Shown one piece after another: positions 1,767 to 46,506 of a stretch of 64,000 nucleotides of DNA. The stretch is from Candidatus Curtissbacteria bacterium (GTDB lineage Bacteria; Patescibacteriota; Microgenomatia; Curtissbacterales; GWA2-41-24): NCBI GenBank assembly GCA_016183325.1, contig JACPEV010000003.1:18000-81999 (forward strand). The letters run 5' to 3'. How positions within the stretch are numbered: position 1 is the stretch's first letter; every line of letters begins with the position of its first letter. The translations under genes and the position numbers were made by a program. The notes under the pieces were generated by a model. The model was given only the letters and a program-made list of their open reading frames with translations, was not told where the DNA came from and did no database searches.

Positions 1767-1838
1767 ACATCTTACATCTTACATCTATAGAGCTCTGTTG
1801 TCAATGCCAAAATCGCCAAAATCGCCCGTGTAGACAAA

Positions 1839-2465
1839 TTAATGACTTAAGCGCACAATTTTGGTGACTTTGGATTTAGGCGACAGACGTTTGGCCGCTA
1901 TTATTTCGATGATGTTTTGGCCATCTTTTAGGGCAAGTTGATAAGAGAAGTTGCCATCGGAATCGACTGGAGCAAATTCGCCGTTTATAGAAACTGTTGC
2001 CTCTTTTTCCGTTTGACCTGAGATAACAATATTGGAGACTTGGGTTGTGAAGTCATCGGGAGGAGTTGTAACTTGCAGTTTCGGACTTTCTAAAATGGAA
2101 GAATATTGGATTACCAAGTAAATAATGAATATGAGAATTGCCAGAGCAGACGCGAAGTTGACGATCCTTTTGGGGGTCAGAAGAAGTTTTTTGGGTTTTT
2201 CGAAAACTGTGGTTTTTGGAGGATACTTTTTTTCATCAAACTCTCTTCTGTAAAGAGCCAAGGTGTGTTGGGCGTCTAACCCCAGATAAGAAGCATAATT
2301 TTGGATAAATCCTCTAACTATCGTCGGTTCTGGCAACTTAACCCAATTTGCGGATTCCAGAGCTTCGAGGAGTTCTTTTTTAATTAAAAGATCACGGGCA
2401 GCTCGCTCAAGGGAGATTCGTTTAGCTTTTCTTTTCGATGAAAGAATTTCAGAAAACGTTGTCAT
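1839..2465 (-). CDS. rodZ: RodZ-like cytoskeleton protein (N-terminal HTH, single TM, C-terminal domain)
   Basis: N-terminal HTH resembling RodZ (KRISLERAARDL...LPEPTIVRGFIQNYASYLGLD), followed by a hydrophobic segment and a C-terminal domain. Confidence 0.55.
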   Translation of the reverse strand: MTTFSEILSSKRKAKRISLERAARDLLIKKELLEALESANWVKLPEPTIVRGFIQNYASYLGLDAQHTLALYRREFDEKKYPPKTTVFEKPKKLLLTPKRIVNFASALAILIFIIYLVIQYSSILESPKLQVTTPPDDFTTQVSNIVISGQTEKEATVSINGEFAPVDSDGNFSYQLALKDGQNIIEIIAAKRLSPKSKVTKIVRLSH

Positions 2466-10475: not shown

Positions 10476-10641
10476 TGAGGCATGTCCGCAGGCAGACGTA
10501 CACGGCTCGTGCTAAGTCAGACTTGGCTATCGAGTTTGACTCGGTGCCGCGATTTTAACGGGTGAAACCCGTTCAGTCTTACCTTTCGCCTTCAGGTGTT
10601 ATTTGTACATGGCTTACGGAGCGGACTGGACAGGTAAATTT
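10476..10641. ncRNA. candidate structured RNA / GC-rich element between infB and the downstream ORF
   Basis: A 165 bp non-coding stretch, markedly more GC-rich than its flanks. Contains a hairpin aacgggtgaaacccgtt with a GNRA-type loop and a possible long-range pairing (gtccgc...gcggac). No class assignment possible. Confidence 0.25.
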
Positions 10642-20870: not shown

Positions 20871-20906
20871 GATTAATTTCCAATTAATCCCGAGTTTATC
20901 GAGGGA

Positions 20907-20934
20907 TTAGCAGACAATGTACCACGAGTGCTAA
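20907..20934 (-). promoter_or_regulatory. CIRCE operator (HrcA binding site)
   Basis: The minus strand reads TTAGCACTC-GTGGTACAT-TGTCTGCTAA. One arm is perfect and the other matches 7/9, with N9 spacing. It sits 37 bp upstream of the hrcA start. Confidence 0.7.
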
Positions 20935-20942
20935 TCGTTGTC

Positions 20943-20975
20943 AAGAGGCAATCAATTATATGATTGCCTCGTAGA
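20943..20975. terminator. perfect 10 bp stem hairpin (gaggcaatca-attata-tgattgcctc)
   Basis: Perfect inverted repeat between the NUDIX gene and the CIRCE/hrcA promoter. Could insulate hrcA from read-through. Confidence 0.35.
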
Positions 20976-21033
20976 CCCTGAGCGAAGCCTTGTACCGGAC
21001 GGTACGGGGCGAAGCCGAAGGGTCAGAGTGGAG

Positions 21034-23494: not shown

Positions 23495-23616
23495 AACTCG
23501 TATGATTATACCATGGCGCCGTGTTAGTAACGGTAACGAAAGGTGGGATGAAACGGCGGGGGGAGTGACACGCTCCTAAATTTCGTGTAACATGCACATG
23601 TAACGCGGATCAGGTA

Positions 23617-23856
23617 GTGTTTGGATCGGAGACCCTCATGATCCCTCGGGTGACCATCGACGACATCGCCAGCGACACGAGGCTCTCCCGCAAGACCGTG
23701 TCCCTAGCTTTGCGTCACGACCAATCTGTTGCTGCTGCAACACTCCGTCGGGTCCTAGACGCGGCTGAGCGTCTCGGCTATACACGTAGCCGAGCCGAAA
23801 CGGCGCTCCTTGGGGTGGTGGTCCCTTACTTCAATCATCCGTTCTACTCCGAGTAA
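23617..23856 (+). pseudogene. LacI-family transcriptional regulator, N-terminal HTH fragment only
   Basis: VTIDDIASDTRLSRKTVSLALRHDQSVAAATLRRVLDAAERLGYTRSRAETALLGVVVPYFNHPFYSE is the canonical LacI HTH plus the first strand of the sugar-binding domain. It stops after 79 aa at the edge of the GC-rich segment. Confidence 0.6.
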
Positions 23857-42390: not shown

Positions 42391-43571
42391 ATGATCTTTA
42401 AATCTATCCCCCGGCAAGTTAAAAATCTGGGACTGGTGAGTCTTTTTAATGATATCGCTTCTGAAATGCTTTATCCGGTGATGCCGATTTTTTTAACGCA
42501 AGTGTTGGCGGCTCCAGTTGCTGTGGTGGGCATTATTGAAGGCGTGGCAGAGGGATCTTCTGCAATTTTTAAGACTCTATTTGGCTTGTGGTCGGACAAA
42601 CTTGGCAAGCGGAAAATATTTGTAGTTTTTGGCTATCTTTCTTCGGCGATTGCTAAAGTTATTATTGCTTTATCGATAATTTGGCCATGGGTATTTTTGG
42701 GAAGATTTGTTGACAGATTTGGCAAGGGAGTAAGAACAGGCGCGCGAGATGCTTTGCTTTTGGAAGCGGCTGATAAGAACAATAAGGGGTTGATTTTTGG
42801 CTTTCACAGATCCATGGATAGCGCCGGCGCGGTTTTGGGACCACTGATTGGTTTTTTCCTGCTTTTAAGTTTTGAGGAAAATATCAGATTGATTTTGTAT
42901 TTAGCCGCGATTCCCTCTCTTTTTGCTTTATTCTTTTTGATTTTCATCAAAGATGCCAAAAAAAATGAGAAGAAGAATTTGAGGTTGAGTCTAACTTTTA
43001 AAAATTTACCTAGTCAATTCAAATTATTTCTCTTAACTGTCGCGATTTTTTCGCTGGGAAACAGTTCTGATGTTTTTTTGATATTGCGAGCACAAAATTT
43101 GGGTTTAACTTTGAGCTTGGTGATTCTTGCTTATGTTATTTATAACTTTGTCTACACTTTTGCTTCAACACCCGCCGGAGGTTTCTCGGACAAAATCGGG
43201 CCTAAAAAGATTTTTTGGTGGGAATTTTAATTTATATTGCAGTTTATTTGGGATTTGCATTTACCAATAGTGCCTTTTATGTTTGGCCGCTGTTTGCAAT
43301 TTATGGATTTTATATTGCGCTGACAGATGGAATTGCTAAGGCATTAGTCGGGTCGTATATTGAAAAAGAACAAGCAGGAACGGCGTATGGGGTACTGCAG
43401 ACGACGATTTCCATCTTTACACTTTTGGCATCGGTGATTGGCGGATTTTTGTGGCAGGTAATCTCACCGCAAGCGACTTTTTTATTCGCAGCTGGTTGTG
43501 CCTTGTTAGCTTTGGGATTATTTTTAGCTTATGGCAAGATTAGGGTAAAAGAGGATTTGATTGAACATTGA
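42391..43571 (+). pseudogene. MFS transporter split by a frameshift in a T6 run (about 43205-43212)
   Basis: The track ORF 42391-43230 ends ...DKIGPKKIFWWEF*. The +1 frame continues VGILIYIAVYLGFAF... (43215-43571). One extra T in aagatttttt|ggtggg would restore a single 12-TM MFS protein. Confidence 0.6.
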
Positions 43572-44259: not shown

Positions 44260-44580
44260 TTACAGGTGAGCAGACTTGCTGTTGGTTTGGGGAACAATGC
44301 GAATTTCCAGGCGTGCCTTTAGGGCTTTGGTGATTTTTTCAAGTGTTTTAAAAGTATAAGCCGTGTAATCGGCGGACTCCAGCCGGGCGATGTTTGATTG
44401 TTTGGTACCCACGAGTTTGGCCAATTGAGCTTGAGTTAAACCTGCTTTTTTACGCAAATCGTAAACTTGGAATGCAATATCCCAAGCCCTATCTGCCTTC
44501 TCTAAACCTTCCGCAAGGTTTGGACGTTGTTTTAATAATTTTTCTGTAAATCTATCTAAATCGTCTTTTTTTCTTTTCAT
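44260..44580 (-). CDS. higA: HTH XRE-family antitoxin (HigA-like)
   Basis: GLTQAQLAKLVGTKQSNIARLE helix-turn-helix. Start overlaps the upstream toxin gene stop. Confidence 0.65.
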   Translation of the reverse strand: MKRKKDDLDRFTEKLLKQRPNLAEGLEKADRAWDIAFQVYDLRKKAGLTQAQLAKLVGTKQSNIARLESADYTAYTFKTLEKITKALKARLEIRIVPQTNSKSAHL

Positions 44581-44581
44581 A

Positions 44582-44974
44582 TCAGCTTTCCTTAATTTTA
44601 ATTTCTCTTAATCTTTTTCTAGCCAATTCCAGTTCGTTACTTGGTATCTTCTGTTGCTTCTTTATAAAAACATGTAAAAGAATTATTACTCGCCCTTTTT
44701 CAAAAGTGTATAAGATCCTTAAGATATTATTTCCTGATTTGATCCTTAATTCCCATAATCCAGGTTCAACATATTTTGACAATGGCTCACGATGGTAAGC
44801 CCTCTTTCTTAATTTTTCAATACCGCTTCTGGTTTTGACGACTAAGTCTATATTGGTTTTAGCCAAATCCAGTAGAAATTCTTCGACAGGACTTTTACCA
44901 TCGACGTCTTTATAAAAATAGATTCCAAAGTCCATTTTTATTATATCAATTTTGATATAAAAATCAAGGGGCAA
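44582..44974 (-). CDS. higB: RelE/HigB-like toxin (phage Gp49-like, PF05973-type)
   Basis: ...GLWELRIKSGNNILRILYTFEKGRVIILLHVFIKKQQKIPSNELELARKRL matches the Gp49/HigB-like toxin family that pairs with XRE antitoxins. Confidence 0.6.
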   Translation of the reverse strand: MPLDFYIKIDIIKMDFGIYFYKDVDGKSPVEEFLLDLAKTNIDLVVKTRSGIEKLRKRAYHREPLSKYVEPGLWELRIKSGNNILRILYTFEKGRVIILLHVFIKKQQKIPSNELELARKRLREIKIKES

Positions 44975-44977
44975 TAA

Positions 44978-45142
44978 TTACTTTTTAGATTTCTTCTCCT
45001 TTTCGCCATAATCTCGACTACTGATTAGAATGACTAGGGGTTTACCGGAGCGGGTGATGAGAATCTTTTTGCGGCCAAAGTGAACTTCGTTGAGAATATC
45101 TGCAAAATGTTGTCTGGCGAATCTTGCAGTAACTGTTTTCAT
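44978..45142 (-). CDS. Phd/YefM-family antitoxin-like protein. Track ORF starts at 45217; likely start is an internal Met.
   Basis: MKTVTARFARQHFADILNEVHFGRKKILITRSGKPLVILIS is the Phd/YefM fold signature. It sits 3 nt upstream of the HigB-like toxin gene. Confidence 0.5.
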   Translation of the reverse strand: MKTVTARFARQHFADILNEVHFGRKKILITRSGKPLVILISSRDYGEKEKKSKK

Positions 45143-45473
45143 TAACAGCATTGTATCTTTATGAAAAAATTGTGTCAATTGTGTACATTTGATACATTTT
45201 GTACCGATTGACAACATGGGTATTAAATGTTATTTTGTTTTTATGATGCATAATTTGTGTCTTTATTTAACTGGGGAATCTTCAAAAACTCTTTCAGATT
45301 TCTTCCAGTAAGTATTTTCGAAACAGGTGGAAGGTCGGGCTGAAGCCTTCTTAAATCCCGTAAGGGTAAGTAAAGTTCTGCGAGGTTGCGAAGCATTTGG
45401 GTGGGAAAGTTCTGACAAACCCAATTAACAACCAGCCTGTTTCTAAATGCAAATTTCAATATTTGTGGGTAGT

Positions 45474-45710
45474 GACTGAATTAAACCGCTATGCAGGGTT
45501 AAGGTGGCTTCTGGTCGGATGATGAATTCGGCAGCTGACGGCAAGTGTTGAGGCTAAACAGGAGCGCTGGGGGCCAAAAGTCCGGTTGATGTGAAAGCAA
45601 CCCTACAGCTTGGGACTGACTACTGCAGAGGCTTCCAAACTTGGGAGAGTAGGTTGAGAGGCGAGGAGAAGTCCTCAAATCAAGACAATTCTTCCCTACC
45701 CACTTTGTTA
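45474..45710 (+). ncRNA. candidate structured RNA closed by an 8 bp terminal helix (GUGGGUAG...CUACCCAC)
   Basis: About 237 nt GC-rich non-coding stretch between converging or diverging genes. Perfect terminal pairing gtgggtag/ctacccac. Internal AAAGUCCGG and GUGAAAGC motifs. Strand and class unresolved. Confidence 0.35.
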
Positions 45711-45720
45711 CAATTGAATT

Positions 45721-46506
45721 GTGAACATTAAGGTGATTTTTAATGAGTTTAAGAGCCAGGTTACATTTACTCTCTTTTTAATTTGGATTTTGGCGGTTTG
45801 GCATCTGCGGACGATCAACTCTTTTGTCTATCCCCTTTTGGCGGTTCTGACGGTTGCTGTGGCTGACTTGTTTGTAACGTGGATTCGAGATCGTAAGTTA
45901 TATTTCCCTTCCGCATCTTTGGTCACGGGCTTTTTGATTGGGTTGATTATAGCTCCAAGCGAACCATTTTGGATGATTATTCTGGCGGCAATCTTAGCTT
46001 CTCTTTCAAAACAATTTATAAATGTAGGTCTTAGGCAACATATTTTTAATCCGGCAGCATTTGGAATTATGGCAACTTCCTTGGCCTTGAATGTACCGGT
46101 CGCTTGGTGGGCTGTTGCCTGGAGTCGATGGCCTTTGATTATTTTGGTACCTCTAATGATCAGAATTTTATGGCGGATGAAACGCTTGATCTTACCAGTA
46201 ACTTTTTTAACAACTTATTTTATTTATTTATTTTTTCAATTTTCACCAAACGATGCAGTAGTGACATTGGTTGATGGAACTTTTTTGCTTTTCGCGCTAG
46301 TAATGTTGCCGGAGCCAATAACTTCCAAAACTCAAGGTTCATTAAAATACTTGTTTGGTGTAATGGTAGCCTTTTTGGCAATTTTGATTTCAAGGACGAA
46401 CTTTTTAACAGACGCTTTTTTATCTGCCCTTCTGATCTCCAATCTAATAGGATTTTTGTTACTGAGGTTTAGAAAAACTTTTAGCCAAAGCAAAAGACCC
46501 AATTAA
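45721..46506 (+). CDS. polytopic membrane protein, unknown function
   Basis: 261 aa with 7-8 hydrophobic segments. Confidence 0.4.
   Translation: MNIKVIFNEFKSQVTFTLFLIWILAVWHLRTINSFVYPLLAVLTVAVADLFVTWIRDRKLYFPSASLVTGFLIGLIIAPSEPFWMIILAAILASLSKQFINVGLRQHIFNPAAFGIMATSLALNVPVAWWAVAWSRWPLIILVPLMIRILWRMKRLILPVTFLTTYFIYLFFQFSPNDAVVTLVDGTFLLFALVMLPEPITSKTQGSLKYLFGVMVAFLAILISRTNFLTDAFLSALLISNLIGFLLLRFRKTFSQSKRPN

What the first reader, a model, noticed from the sequence alone, without database searches (positions are those of the whole stretch)
45474..45710. Candidate ~237 nt structured RNA closed by a perfect 8 bp terminal helix
A GC-rich non-coding block in an otherwise AT-rich intergenic region begins GUGGGUAG and ends CUACCCAC, giving a P1-like closing stem. 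It contains AAAGUCCGG and GUGAAAGC motifs reminiscent of RNase P RNA, but in non-canonical order. It could be a reduced RNase P RNA, 6S-like RNA, riboswitch, or another GC-rich element.
Basis: seen in the sequence. Interest (0 to 1): 0.55.

Follow-up and report, generated by a model that had tools for sequence, protein, structure and literature searches.

The report
Novel two-domain RNA beside mini-antitoxin
The GC-rich block is a real, previously undescribed structured RNA of tiny groundwater (CPR) bacteria, always paired head-to-head with a miniature antitoxin-like repressor gene; it is not RNase P, 6S RNA or a riboswitch, and what it does is unknown.

Summary
In one sequence this is not beyond chance. 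Homologs settle it: 17 distinct copies from Microgenomates/CPR metagenomes support a 62-pair fold (98.6% of cells paired; 25 pairs with compensatory changes against 14.5±1.9 in shuffles), including this helix.

The block is only domain B of a larger modular transcript. The predicted order is promoter, tiny leaderless ORF, 124-nt domain A (45320-45443, also supported by covariation), AU-rich linker, domain B.

No Rfam 15 family matches, in the window or in 10 homologs. The "RNase P-like" motifs lie in the least conserved part.

The RNA gene sits head-to-head with a 54-aa mini Phd/YefM protein that is a DNA-binding domain only. A conserved TGTACA-type operator lies between the two -35 boxes. This pairing held in all 14 loci found through the RNA alone that keep the 5' region.

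The gene downstream of the RNA is not conserved and is often convergent, so this is a stand-alone ncRNA and not a leader.

Best reading: a new large ncRNA family repressed by mini-YefM, moving as a cassette among toxin-antitoxin islands. Its biochemical function is unknown.

The parts
44978..45142 (-). Mini Phd/YefM gene (54 aa; the longer 79-aa ORF call to 45217 is probably an over-extension). It carries the DNA-binding domain only, plus a Lys-rich tail.
   Evidence: Pfam PF02604 match starts at residue 26 of the 79-aa ORF. NCBI annotates the 54-aa form, P0122. A profile of 12 homologs matches only residues 1-49 of phage P1 Phd, e.g. 4zlx. R10 and R31 are invariant.
45150..45178 (-). Sigma-70-type promoter of the mini-Phd gene (-35 TTGACA 45178-45173, -10 TACAAT 45155-45150). 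The ATG lies 7 nt after the -10, so the mRNA is leaderless or nearly so.
   Evidence: Promoter scan, 11 of 12 matches; sequence read.
45179..45207 (.). Conserved operator between the two -35 boxes: TGTACA 45182-45187, GATACA 45191-45196, TGTACC 45200-45205.
   Evidence: Nearly invariant TTGTGTACATTTGATACAYTTTGTAY in 16 homologs. The E. coli YefM operator core is TGTACA (PMC4803016).
45208..45236 (+). Sigma-70-type promoter of the RNA (-35 TTGACA 45208-45213; TG-extended -10 TATTTT 45231-45236).
   Evidence: Promoter scan, 10 of 12 matches plus TG. The -35 TTGACA is present in 16 of 18 aligned copies.
45243..45311 (+). Tiny ORF at the predicted transcript start (22 aa, MMHNLCLYLTGESSKTLSDFFQ). 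Its status is uncertain: leader peptide, small protein, or just the initial transcribed region.
   Evidence: An ATG 29-37 nt after the -35 box, followed by a 12-27 codon ORF, is present in all 16 copies that have the promoter.
45320..45443 (+). Domain A (124 nt): closing helix GAAACAGGUG/CA-G-CCUGUUUC, a hairpin with a conserved GCUGAA loop, a 3-bp GNRA hairpin (CCC-GUAA-GGG), a ~30-nt conserved single-stranded stretch, and a fourth hairpin.
   Evidence: Covariance model R1 scores 141.3 bits, E 3e-31. 27 pairs, 95.7% of cells paired, 16 pairs with double-sided changes, covariation 0.542 vs 0.186 in shuffles.
45444..45464 (+). AU-rich linker between the domains. It is variable and tolerates insertions in other copies.
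   Evidence: Alignment A3. The linker holds tRNA-Glu in L085, a second A domain in L098, and a palindromic insert in L104.
45465..45703 (+). Helices in window coordinates: P1 45465-72/45696-703; P2 45484-90/45495-500; P3 45503-13/45559-68, enclosing P3a 45514-20/45526-32 and P3b-c 45533-42/45547-55; P4 45571-75/45630-34, enclosing a variable region; P5 45643-59/45680-95 with tip 45663-67/45672-76.
   Evidence: RNAalifold on 17 sequences. The count of structure pairs gives 62 pairs, 98.6% paired and 25 pairs with compensatory changes; 0 of 500 shuffles reach this, and slid controls give 4-9. Coordinates mapped.

Best explanation
The reported block is domain B of a previously undescribed, modular, structured non-coding RNA found in Microgenomates (CPR/Patescibacteria).

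Anatomy in the window. The transcript is predicted to start at its own sigma-70-type promoter (45208-45236). It opens with a tiny, probably leaderless ORF (45243-45311), continues through domain A (45320-45443) and an AU-rich linker, and ends with domain B (45465-45703).

Shown here:
- Both domains have covariation-supported folds on the + strand.
- The RNA matches no Rfam family.
- It is not tied to any downstream gene.
- It is tied, head-to-head, to a 50-54-aa Phd/YefM protein that is reduced to the DNA-binding domain.
- A conserved TGTACA-type operator lies exactly between the two -35 boxes.
- The RNA/mini-Phd pair occurs in unrelated genomic contexts, mostly next to toxin-antitoxin genes.

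Inferred from the YefM/Phd paradigm: the mini-YefM dimer binds this operator and represses both promoters, so RNA level is set by the level of a small, probably labile repressor.

Inferred, weakly: the RNA is the effector of this two-gene cassette. It would be an output that needs no translation, made when the repressor falls (for example on translation arrest by neighbouring mRNA-interferase toxins, or on phage attack). It would act in trans as a protein-binding or catalytic RNA. Domains A and B behave as separable modules.
For: Homology:
- The whole 45164-45708 region is 74-84% identical upstream of mini-Phd homologs in other contexts: L065 E 6e-117, L067 3e-66, L070 3e-57.
- More copies turned up in L075, L077 and L104.
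- 23 metagenome loci were retrieved by a 3' RNA motif alone.

Structure:
- Domain B: 62 pairs, 98.6% paired, 25 pairs with compensatory changes vs 14.5±1.9 in shuffles (0 of 500), slid controls 4-9.
- Domain A: 27 pairs, 95.7% paired, 16 pairs with compensatory changes.

Strand: several pairs are G.U in 12-17 of 17 sequences (columns 67/135, 69/133, 105/114, 220/260, 226/255). On the other strand these would be A.C mismatches. In L085 a tRNA-Glu gene lies on the same strand inside the linker.

No known family. No phage or plasmid match.

Not a leader: the downstream gene is convergent in L065, L075 and L077.

Linkage: all 14 RNA-retrieved loci that keep the 5' region have mini-Phd divergent about 50 nt away. 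5 of 7 informative look-ups made from the protein side had the full RNA and 2 had remnants.

Repressor and operator: the protein matches only Phd residues 1-49 and has invariant R10 and R31. The operator is conserved. The E. coli YefM operator core is TGTACA and R10/R31 are essential for DNA binding (PMC4803016).

Cassette boundary: the RNA's 3' end abuts the native RnfD promoter, which is conserved in relatives that lack the cassette.
Against: - There is no expression data of any kind. The promoter, transcript ends and leaderless ORF are predictions.
- No intrinsic terminator is predicted after domain B in the window.
- The function of the RNA is not shown at all.
- Only about 18 distinct sequences exist, all from related groundwater CPR lineages, so the covariation counts are not phylogenetically independent.
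- The domain A alignment was fitted to the model.
- The 3' motif used for the metagenome scan inflates the apparent invariance of that motif.
- One distinct copy (L081/L097) lacks mini-Phd and faces a DUF4258/YokU-like TA operon instead.
- Copies with A only (L072, L106) or with only a B remnant (L071, L084) show that the unit is not strictly obligatory.
- Repression by mini-YefM rests on analogy with E. coli YefM.
Confidence: 0.6

Rival explanations
1. Dual-function or messenger RNA. The real product is the tiny 5' ORF (12-27 aa). The structured domains would be a long regulatory or stabilising 3' region, or a second regulatory function, as in S. aureus RNAIII. RNAIII encodes delta-haemolysin and is divergent from the agr operon.
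For: All 16 copies that have the promoter show an ATG 29-37 nt after the -35 box, followed by a 12-27 codon ORF. In the variant group the peptides are similar (MLNINVSCGGNTQLSE.. / MLDINVSCSGNNQPSE..) with some synonymous differences. The divergent-promoter layout resembles agr P2/P3 (my own knowledge).
Against: Peptide length and sequence are poorly conserved between subgroups. No Shine-Dalgarno sequence or expression evidence is available. By far the strongest conservation and all the covariation lie in the roughly 385 nt of RNA structure. The peptides are too short and too polar for a membrane toxin.
Confidence: 0.15
2. RNA-protein toxin-antitoxin-like pair. The RNA is itself growth-inhibitory (or is an antitoxin for a toxin encoded elsewhere), and mini-Phd neutralises it by binding the RNA through its Lys-rich tail as well as by repression.
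For: The pair is mobile and lives in TA islands. Decayed copies keep Phd and lose the RNA (L071, L084, L072), which is the order expected if the RNA were the harmful partner. The tail is basic.
Against: The layout is divergent, unlike TA operons. A copy of the RNA exists without mini-Phd (L081). A repressor-only antitoxin cannot give post-segregational killing. No evidence of toxicity or of RNA binding exists. PADLOC has no match for mini-Phd.
Confidence: 0.12
3. Cis-regulatory leader or riboswitch. Domain A, or A plus B, senses a ligand and controls what lies downstream (the RnfD-like gene in the window).
For: The RNA is on the same strand as, and directly upstream of, the RnfD-like gene in the window. 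Domain A is always first and has a possible alternative pairing of its 3' strand. In the A-only loci a homologous zinc-ribbon protein gene follows.
Against: Ten Curtissbacteria relatives have the RnfD-like gene with a short intergenic region and no such RNA. The downstream gene differs in every locus and is convergent in three. The RnfD-like gene has its own extended -10 box after the RNA. In L106 a terminator separates the RNA from the zinc-ribbon gene. No Rfam riboswitch matches.
Confidence: 0.05
4. A divergent member of a known housekeeping RNA (reduced RNase P RNA, 6S RNA, SRP RNA or tmRNA).
For: The GC-rich structured block in an AT-rich genome, with short AAAGUCCGG and GUGAAAGC strings.
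Against: No Rfam hit even at E<=10 in the window, or at E<=1 in 10 homologs. ARAGORN finds no tmRNA. The two strings are not conserved in the family. The element is absent from the syntenic site in relatives and is linked to a mobile antitoxin-type gene. Truncated copies exist.
Confidence: 0.02
5. Not an RNA at all: a decayed protein-coding fragment or a DNA-level element such as a transposon end, recombination site or origin.
For: The minus-strand frame has few stop codons. The element lies at the edge of an inserted gene block.
Against: No Pfam or tblastx similarity in any frame. Indels are not in multiples of three. The substitutions are compensatory in helices and tolerate G.U on one strand only. 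There is no second copy in the window.
Confidence: 0.02

Closest known systems
Large structured bacterial ncRNAs of unknown or recently emerging function (OLE, GOLLD, ROOL, raiA motif, HEARO)
   Same: Several hundred nucleotides long, multi-domain, with many invariant loop and junction nucleotides plus covarying helices. They are found by comparative genomics, their function is not deducible from sequence, and some are associated with tRNA genes or mobile DNA.
   Different: No sequence or structure match to any of them in Rfam 15. It is restricted, so far, to Microgenomates/CPR. It is built of separable modules (A, A-variant, B, C). It is linked to a dedicated mini-Phd/YefM gene rather than to Oap proteins, phage or IscB.
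YefM-YoeB / Phd-Doc type II toxin-antitoxin operators
   Same: The neighbouring protein has the Phd/YefM N-terminal fold with the DNA-contacting R10 and R31. The control region carries a TGTACA core palindrome plus repeats at about 10-bp spacing, overlapping promoter elements.
   Different: The protein lacks the C-terminal toxin-binding segment. No conserved toxin gene follows it; the next gene differs in every locus. The operator also controls a divergent promoter that drives a structured RNA.
S. aureus RNAIII / agr locus, and sRNA genes with a divergent dedicated regulator (OxyS-OxyR, GcvB-GcvA, SgrS-SgrR)
   Same: Back-to-back promoters share one regulatory region, with a regulator on one side and a structured RNA on the other. 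As in RNAIII, the RNA is about 450 nt and starts with a very short ORF.
   Different: No homology. The regulator is an antitoxin-type repressor and not an activator. The RNA helices and loops are far more conserved than is usual for base-pairing sRNAs. No targets are known. This resemblance is recalled from the literature and was not tested here.
Type III toxin-antitoxin RNAs (ToxI and relatives) and the type VIII RNA toxin CreT
   Same: An RNA partner within a small mobile module related to toxin-antitoxin biology.
   Different: There are no tandem 36-nt repeats and no adjacent endoribonuclease toxin. The partner protein is a DNA-binding domain. The RNA is 10 times larger and complexly folded.
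Bacterial RNase P RNA
   Same: GC-rich, multi-helix, closed by a terminal helix. It contains the string AAAGUCCGG.
   Different: It fails the covariance models. The string is not conserved. There is no P4 pseudoknot or CR-I to CR-V order. It is not a universal single-copy gene; it is a cassette, absent from the same site in relatives.

Membership tests
Bacterial RNase P RNA (Rfam RF00010/RF00011) | Scores against the family covariance model | tested here: not met
   No hit at the gathering score, none at E<=10 on 45100-45900, and none at E<=1 on 10 homologous loci.
Bacterial RNase P RNA (Rfam RF00010/RF00011) | Universally conserved CR-I (GGAAAGUCCGGGC) and the other CR blocks, in canonical order, forming P4 | tested here: not met
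   AAAGUCCGG (45577-85) lies in A4 columns ~143-152, where the 17 homologs differ in sequence and length. No complementary P4 3' strand is conserved.
Bacterial RNase P RNA (Rfam RF00010/RF00011) | Essential single-copy housekeeping gene, vertically inherited | tested here: not met
   Absent from the syntenic site of 10 Curtissbacteria relatives. Linked to a mobile mini-Phd gene in varied contexts. Truncated copies exist. Whole genomes could not be scanned.
6S RNA (RF00013 and relatives) | Covariance-model match, and a rod-like fold with a large central bubble that mimics an open promoter | tested here: not met
   No Rfam hit. The consensus fold is a five-way junction with branched arms.
Riboswitch / cis-regulatory leader | Conserved position in the 5' UTR of a functionally coherent set of downstream genes, with an expression platform | tested here: not met
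   The downstream genes are unrelated, and convergent in L065, L075 and L077. The RnfD-like gene has its own -10 box after the RNA. No terminator or sequestering stem is conserved.
Riboswitch / cis-regulatory leader | Binds a small-molecule ligand | not testable with these tools
   Needs in-line probing or ITC.
Phd/YefM antitoxin family (for the partner protein) | N-terminal Phd/YefM DNA-binding/dimerisation domain (PF02604) | tested here: met
   PF02604, E 3.6e-10. The profile matches P1 Phd residues 1-49 in PDB entries 4zlx, 3hs2 and 3hry. R10 and R31 are invariant.
Phd/YefM antitoxin family (for the partner protein) | C-terminal toxin-binding region, and a cognate toxin gene (Doc or YoeB/RelE-type) immediately downstream | tested here: not met
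   The protein ends at about residue 50 with a variable Lys-rich tail. The downstream gene differs in every locus: Gp49, a 159-aa unknown, DUF3800, a 54-aa ORF, PRiA4_ORF3, MNT, or none.
Type III toxin-antitoxin RNA (ToxI-like) | Tandem short repeats processed by an adjacent endoribonuclease toxin | tested here: not met
   No internal repeats and no second copy. No ToxN/AbiQ-type gene is adjacent.
Structured non-coding RNA (generic criterion) | A conserved secondary structure supported by compensatory substitutions on one strand | tested here: met
   Domain B. Domain A. The G.U-rich pairs are compatible only with the + strand.
Structured non-coding RNA (generic criterion) | Transcribed as a discrete RNA | not testable with these tools
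   Only indirect support: a conserved sigma-70 promoter and a co-oriented tRNA gene inside the linker of L085. No RNA-seq was available.

The most novel reading that the evidence does not exclude
The locus is a new type of two-component switch. An antitoxin-derived repressor (mini-YefM) holds back a large, modular, catalytically or structurally active RNA. That RNA is released when translation or the repressor fails. It would be an 'RNA effector' arm of toxin-antitoxin and defence biology in CPR bacteria, possibly a new ribozyme or RNA-only assembly, with domains A, B and C as exchangeable RNA modules.
Probability: 0.25. Interest if true: 0.9.

Novelty: categorically new. Interest (0 to 1): 0.78.

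Why it matters
New large, intricately folded bacterial RNAs are rare. Past examples (RNase P, group I and II introns, OLE, GOLLD, ROOL, raiA, IscB omega RNA) turned out to be ribozymes, guide RNAs or unusual RNA assemblies. This one comes from the Candidate Phyla Radiation, where almost no non-coding RNA biology has been described.

It also comes with a ready-made handle: a dedicated 50-aa repressor and a defined operator. That makes its regulation directly testable. It suggests that antitoxin-type DNA-binding domains have been recruited to control RNA genes.

The modular make-up invites structural and biochemical study. Copies exist with A or A-variant, with or without B, with or without C, and with a tRNA tolerated in the linker.

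If the RNA is only a lineage-restricted regulatory RNA, the finding is still a clean new Rfam-grade family with 89 covariation-tested base pairs.

Tried and rejected
1. Rfam at the gathering score on the whole window, at E<=10 on the region, and at E<=1 on 10 homologous loci. Only chance C/D snoRNA and manA hits appeared.
2. ARAGORN found no tRNA or tmRNA in the window.
3. Synteny route: 53 genome loci around RnfD-like homologs, 10 of them Curtissbacteria. nhmmer, blastn and profile nhmmer found no homolog of the intergenic region, and those relatives have short intergenic regions there.
4. Same-strain Logan contigs were 100% identical, hence uninformative.
5. There are no close relatives of the RnfD-like protein; the next best is 66% identical.
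6. Coding-remnant hypothesis: six-frame translation, tblastx against all loci and the window, and Pfam on all six frames gave nothing.
7. Phage and plasmid BLAST gave no match.
8. An all-against-all column covariation search in domain B for extra pseudoknot helices found only the nested helices plus isolated noise pairs.
9. An alternative pairing of domain A's 3' strand with the internal GCGAGGUUGCG was proposed by RNAalifold on a poor MAFFT alignment. I rejected it as the main fold because the variant-type copies break it, while they keep the 5'/3' closing helix through three compensatory changes. It may still be an alternative conformer.
10. Literature searches for a described CPR/Patescibacteria RNA of this kind, or for a Phd-linked ncRNA, found nothing relevant.
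11. PADLOC gave no defence-system match for mini-Phd.

Full report
**Observation.** The window is from a Candidatus Curtissbacteria (Microgenomates, CPR) genome. GC content is 50-55% across 45500-45700, against 26-31% in the flanking intergenic DNA and 40.5% overall.

On its own the helix proves nothing. Shuffled versions of the 503-nt intergenic region contain on average 1.5 perfect 8-bp inverted repeats. The minimum-free-energy fold is only mildly better than shuffles on the + strand (z = -1.83) and no better on the - strand (z = +0.18). The only other perfect 8-bp inverted repeat in the region closes a second block at about 45320-45443.

**Known families.** Rfam 15 gives no hit at gathering thresholds anywhere in the window. 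In permissive mode on 45100-45900 it gives only chance matches to archaeal or eukaryotic C/D snoRNAs and lncRNA fragments. ARAGORN finds no tRNA or tmRNA. Six-frame translation, tblastx and Pfam give no sign of a coding remnant.

**Finding homologs.** The obvious route failed. I fetched 53 genome loci around homologs of the downstream RnfD-like membrane protein. The 10 Curtissbacteria relatives (49-65% amino-acid identity) have short intergenic regions and no trace of the element. In them a UvrD/PcrA, MFS or TA gene abuts the RnfD-like gene. They do conserve the box TTGTTA(A/C)AAT just before the start codon. In the window this box (TGnTACAAT, 45706-45714) begins three bases after the element ends. 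The element therefore lies at the edge of an inserted block and is not the RnfD-like gene's leader. Same-strain contigs were identical, and no closer relative of the RnfD-like protein exists in the protein database.

The upstream neighbour gave the answer. It is a Phd/YefM-type antitoxin gene on the minus strand. NCBI annotates it as 54 aa, and the Pfam match starts at residue 26 of the longer ORF. I looked up contigs that encode its 58-80% identical homologs. All had 350-700 nt of non-coding DNA upstream of the gene. nhmmer showed that this DNA is homologous to essentially the whole window region 45164-45708, on the strand opposite to the Phd gene: L065 E 6e-117 (84% identity over 544 nt), L067 3e-66, L070 3e-57. 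L075 (a Daviesbacteria genome), L077 and L104 followed.

From the first alignment I took a conserved 3' motif and scanned metagenome contigs. This returned 23 further loci and none from viral contigs. Altogether there are 17-18 distinct full copies.

**Structure.** RNAalifold on the 17 distinct domain-B sequences predicts 62 base pairs. Counted on that alignment:
- 98.6% of cells are standard pairs.
- 25 pairs show changes on both sides, against 14.5±1.9 in shuffles (0 of 500 reach the observed value).
- Partner-slid controls give 4-9 such pairs.
- The covariation score is 0.395, against 0.216 in shuffles and 0.06-0.09 in slid controls.

Pair 1/8' occurs as G-C, A-U and G.U. Pair 3/6' occurs as G-C, U-A and G.U. 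In L104, which played no part in deriving the fold, pair 3/6' is C-G.

Several pairs are G.U in 12-17 of the 17 sequences. This is possible only for an RNA read from the + strand.

In window coordinates domain B comprises:
- P1, 45465-72/45696-703
- P2
- a long P3 that carries a three-way junction
- P4, which encloses a variable region
- a long, almost invariant P5 hairpin

For domain A I built a covariance model from 14 sequences with a hand-drawn structure. It recovers 19 copies, including five of a divergent "variant" type at 47-58 bits. On the resulting alignment:
- 27 pairs are 95.7% paired.
- 16 pairs have double-sided changes.
- Covariation is 0.542, against 0.186 in shuffles and at most 0.19 in slid controls.

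The caveat is that this alignment was fitted to the model. The closing helix of A changes from ACAGG/CCUGU to GUGGG/CCCAC in the variant type.

**Architecture and modularity.** The conserved layout is, in order:
- -35 TTGACA and a -10 box
- an ATG 29-37 nt after the -35 box, opening a 12-27 codon ORF
- in many copies, a covarying hairpin
- domain A
- an AU-rich linker
- domain B

The linker tolerates insertions:
- a tRNA-Glu(CTC) gene on the same strand in L085, 5 nt after A and 8 nt before B
- a second A domain in L098
- a 150-nt palindromic insert in L104

Some loci carry only A (L072, L106) or only a 3' remnant of B (L071, L084). Three carry a third structured module, C, that ends in a terminator. 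A and B therefore behave as separable RNA modules, and the same-strand tRNA supports transcription in this direction.

**Context.**
- In the RNA's direction of transcription, the next gene is unrelated from locus to locus and is convergent in L065, L075 and L077. This excludes a 5'-leader role.
- In the other direction, mini-Phd is nearly constant. All 14 loci retrieved through the RNA motif alone that retain the RNA's 5' region have it, divergent and about 50 nt away.
- The one distinct exception (L081/L097) faces a DUF4258/YokU-like TA operon instead.
- Genes downstream of mini-Phd vary: HigB-like Gp49 plus HigA in the window, DUF3800, PRiA4_ORF3, MNT/HEPN, small unknown ORFs, or none.
- The conserved unit is therefore the RNA plus mini-Phd. 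It sits in different genomic neighbourhoods, typically TA-rich ones.

**The protein and the operator.** Twelve family members align over about 45 residues at 61-78% identity, then end in a variable Lys-rich tail. A profile matches only residues 1-49 of phage P1 Phd, which is the DNA-binding domain crystallised alone as 4zlx.

Between the two -35 hexamers lies a nearly invariant TTGTGTACATTTGATACAYTTTGTAY. In the window this reads TGTACA 45182-87, GATACA 45191-96 and TGTACC 45200-05. The E. coli yefM-yoeB operator consists of two palindromes with a TGTACA core, and YefM R10 and R31 are essential for binding (PMC4803016). R10 and R31 are invariant in the mini-Phd family.

It is therefore a well-founded inference, not a demonstration, that mini-YefM binds here and represses both promoters. 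All three start codons in this stretch (mini-Phd, the small ORF and the RnfD-like gene) lie about 7 nt after a -10 box, which suggests leaderless transcripts.

**Interpretation.**
- Shown: a new, covariation-supported, modular structured RNA family on the + strand; no membership of any Rfam family; genetic linkage to a DNA-binding-only Phd/YefM protein through a shared, conserved, YefM-type operator; cassette-like distribution.
- Inferred: the RNA is a stand-alone transcript, repressed by mini-YefM.
- Speculative: it is the effector of the cassette, an output that needs no translation and is produced when a small labile repressor is lost. Translation arrest by co-resident mRNA-interferase toxins, or phage attack, could cause that loss. 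It would act as a protein-binding or catalytic RNA.

The rivals I could not exclude are an RNAIII-like dual-function RNA whose small ORF matters, and a true RNA/protein TA-like pair. RNase P, 6S, riboswitch, pseudogene and DNA-element readings are each contradicted by specific tests.

**Novelty.** Nothing in Rfam 15, in the phage and plasmid collections, or in the literature I could search describes this RNA or a Phd-linked ncRNA. By class it most resembles the orphan large ncRNAs (OLE, GOLLD, ROOL, raiA). Its regulatory layout resembles RNAIII/agr or the OxyS/OxyR pairs. It is homologous to none of them.

**Limits.**
- About 18 distinct sequences, all from related groundwater lineages.
- No expression data.
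- The transcript's 3' end is undefined.
- Whole genomes could not be scanned for copy number or for a canonical RNase P RNA.

Noticed in passing
window 45243-45311 (+): Tiny ORF (22 aa) starting about 7 nt after the RNA promoter's -10 box. An equivalent ATG plus a 12-27 codon ORF is present in all 16 homologs that have the promoter. Peptides of the variant group are alike (MLNINVSCGGN.. / MLDINVSCSGN..). It could be a leaderless leader peptide or a small protein.
   Followed up: partly
L085:2562-2634 (+): A tRNA-Glu(CTC) gene sits inside the linker between domains A and B, on the RNA's strand, 5 nt after A and 8 nt before B. This implies co-transcription and RNase P/Z processing that would separate the two domains.
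   Followed up: yes
L106:2060-2232 (-), L092:652-801 (+), L095:1091-1239 (+): A third conserved structured module, 'C' (UGAAAGUGGCGGAAAAGACG...). It has covarying hairpins and ends in a GCAAGG...CCUUGC plus U-tract terminator. It follows A in L106 and B in L092 and L095, and it is absent from the window.
   Followed up: partly
L098:1921-2048 and 1779-1903 (-); L070, L085, L087, L072: Domain A exists in two forms, main and variant, at 47-58 bits against the main-type model. L098 carries both in tandem before domain B.
   Followed up: partly
L072:2388-2648 (-), L106:1742-2053 (-): In the two loci that have domain A but no domain B, the next gene on the RNA's strand encodes homologous small double-zinc-ribbon proteins (32% identity, E 1e-5).
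   Followed up: partly
L104:2022-2176 (-): A ~150-nt insertion in the A-B linker carries long inverted repeats (GTCATTCCC...GGGAATGAC). It looks like a miniature mobile or REP-like element.
   Followed up: no
window 42391-43571 (+): The MFS transporter gene is split into two overlapping ORFs (279 and 118 aa). The same split appears in independent Logan assemblies of the strain. The relative L065 has a single 421-aa gene. This is a probable frameshift or pseudogene.
   Followed up: partly
window 23495-23754, 10476-10641, 20871-21033: Other intergenic blocks that are GC-rich for this genome (GC 0.55, 0.51 and 0.48). They have no Rfam hit. They may hold small genes or further RNAs.
   Followed up: no
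window 45706-45723 and 45140-45155: The RnfD-like gene (GTG at 45721) and the mini-Phd gene (ATG at 45142, minus strand) both start about 7 nt after a -10 box (TGnTACAAT; TACAAT). This suggests that leaderless mRNAs are common in this organism. The RnfD box is conserved in 10 relatives.
   Followed up: partly
window 44260-44974 (-): A complete HigB-like (Gp49, PF05973) plus HigA-like (HTH_3) toxin-antitoxin pair lies directly downstream of mini-Phd. The Gp49 protein also gives a weak PADLOC NsnC match.
   Followed up: partly
L075:5592-5743 (+): A sub-threshold SAM-I riboswitch match (35.5 bits against a gathering score of 44.4; E 2e-4) in a Daviesbacteria locus.
   Followed up: no
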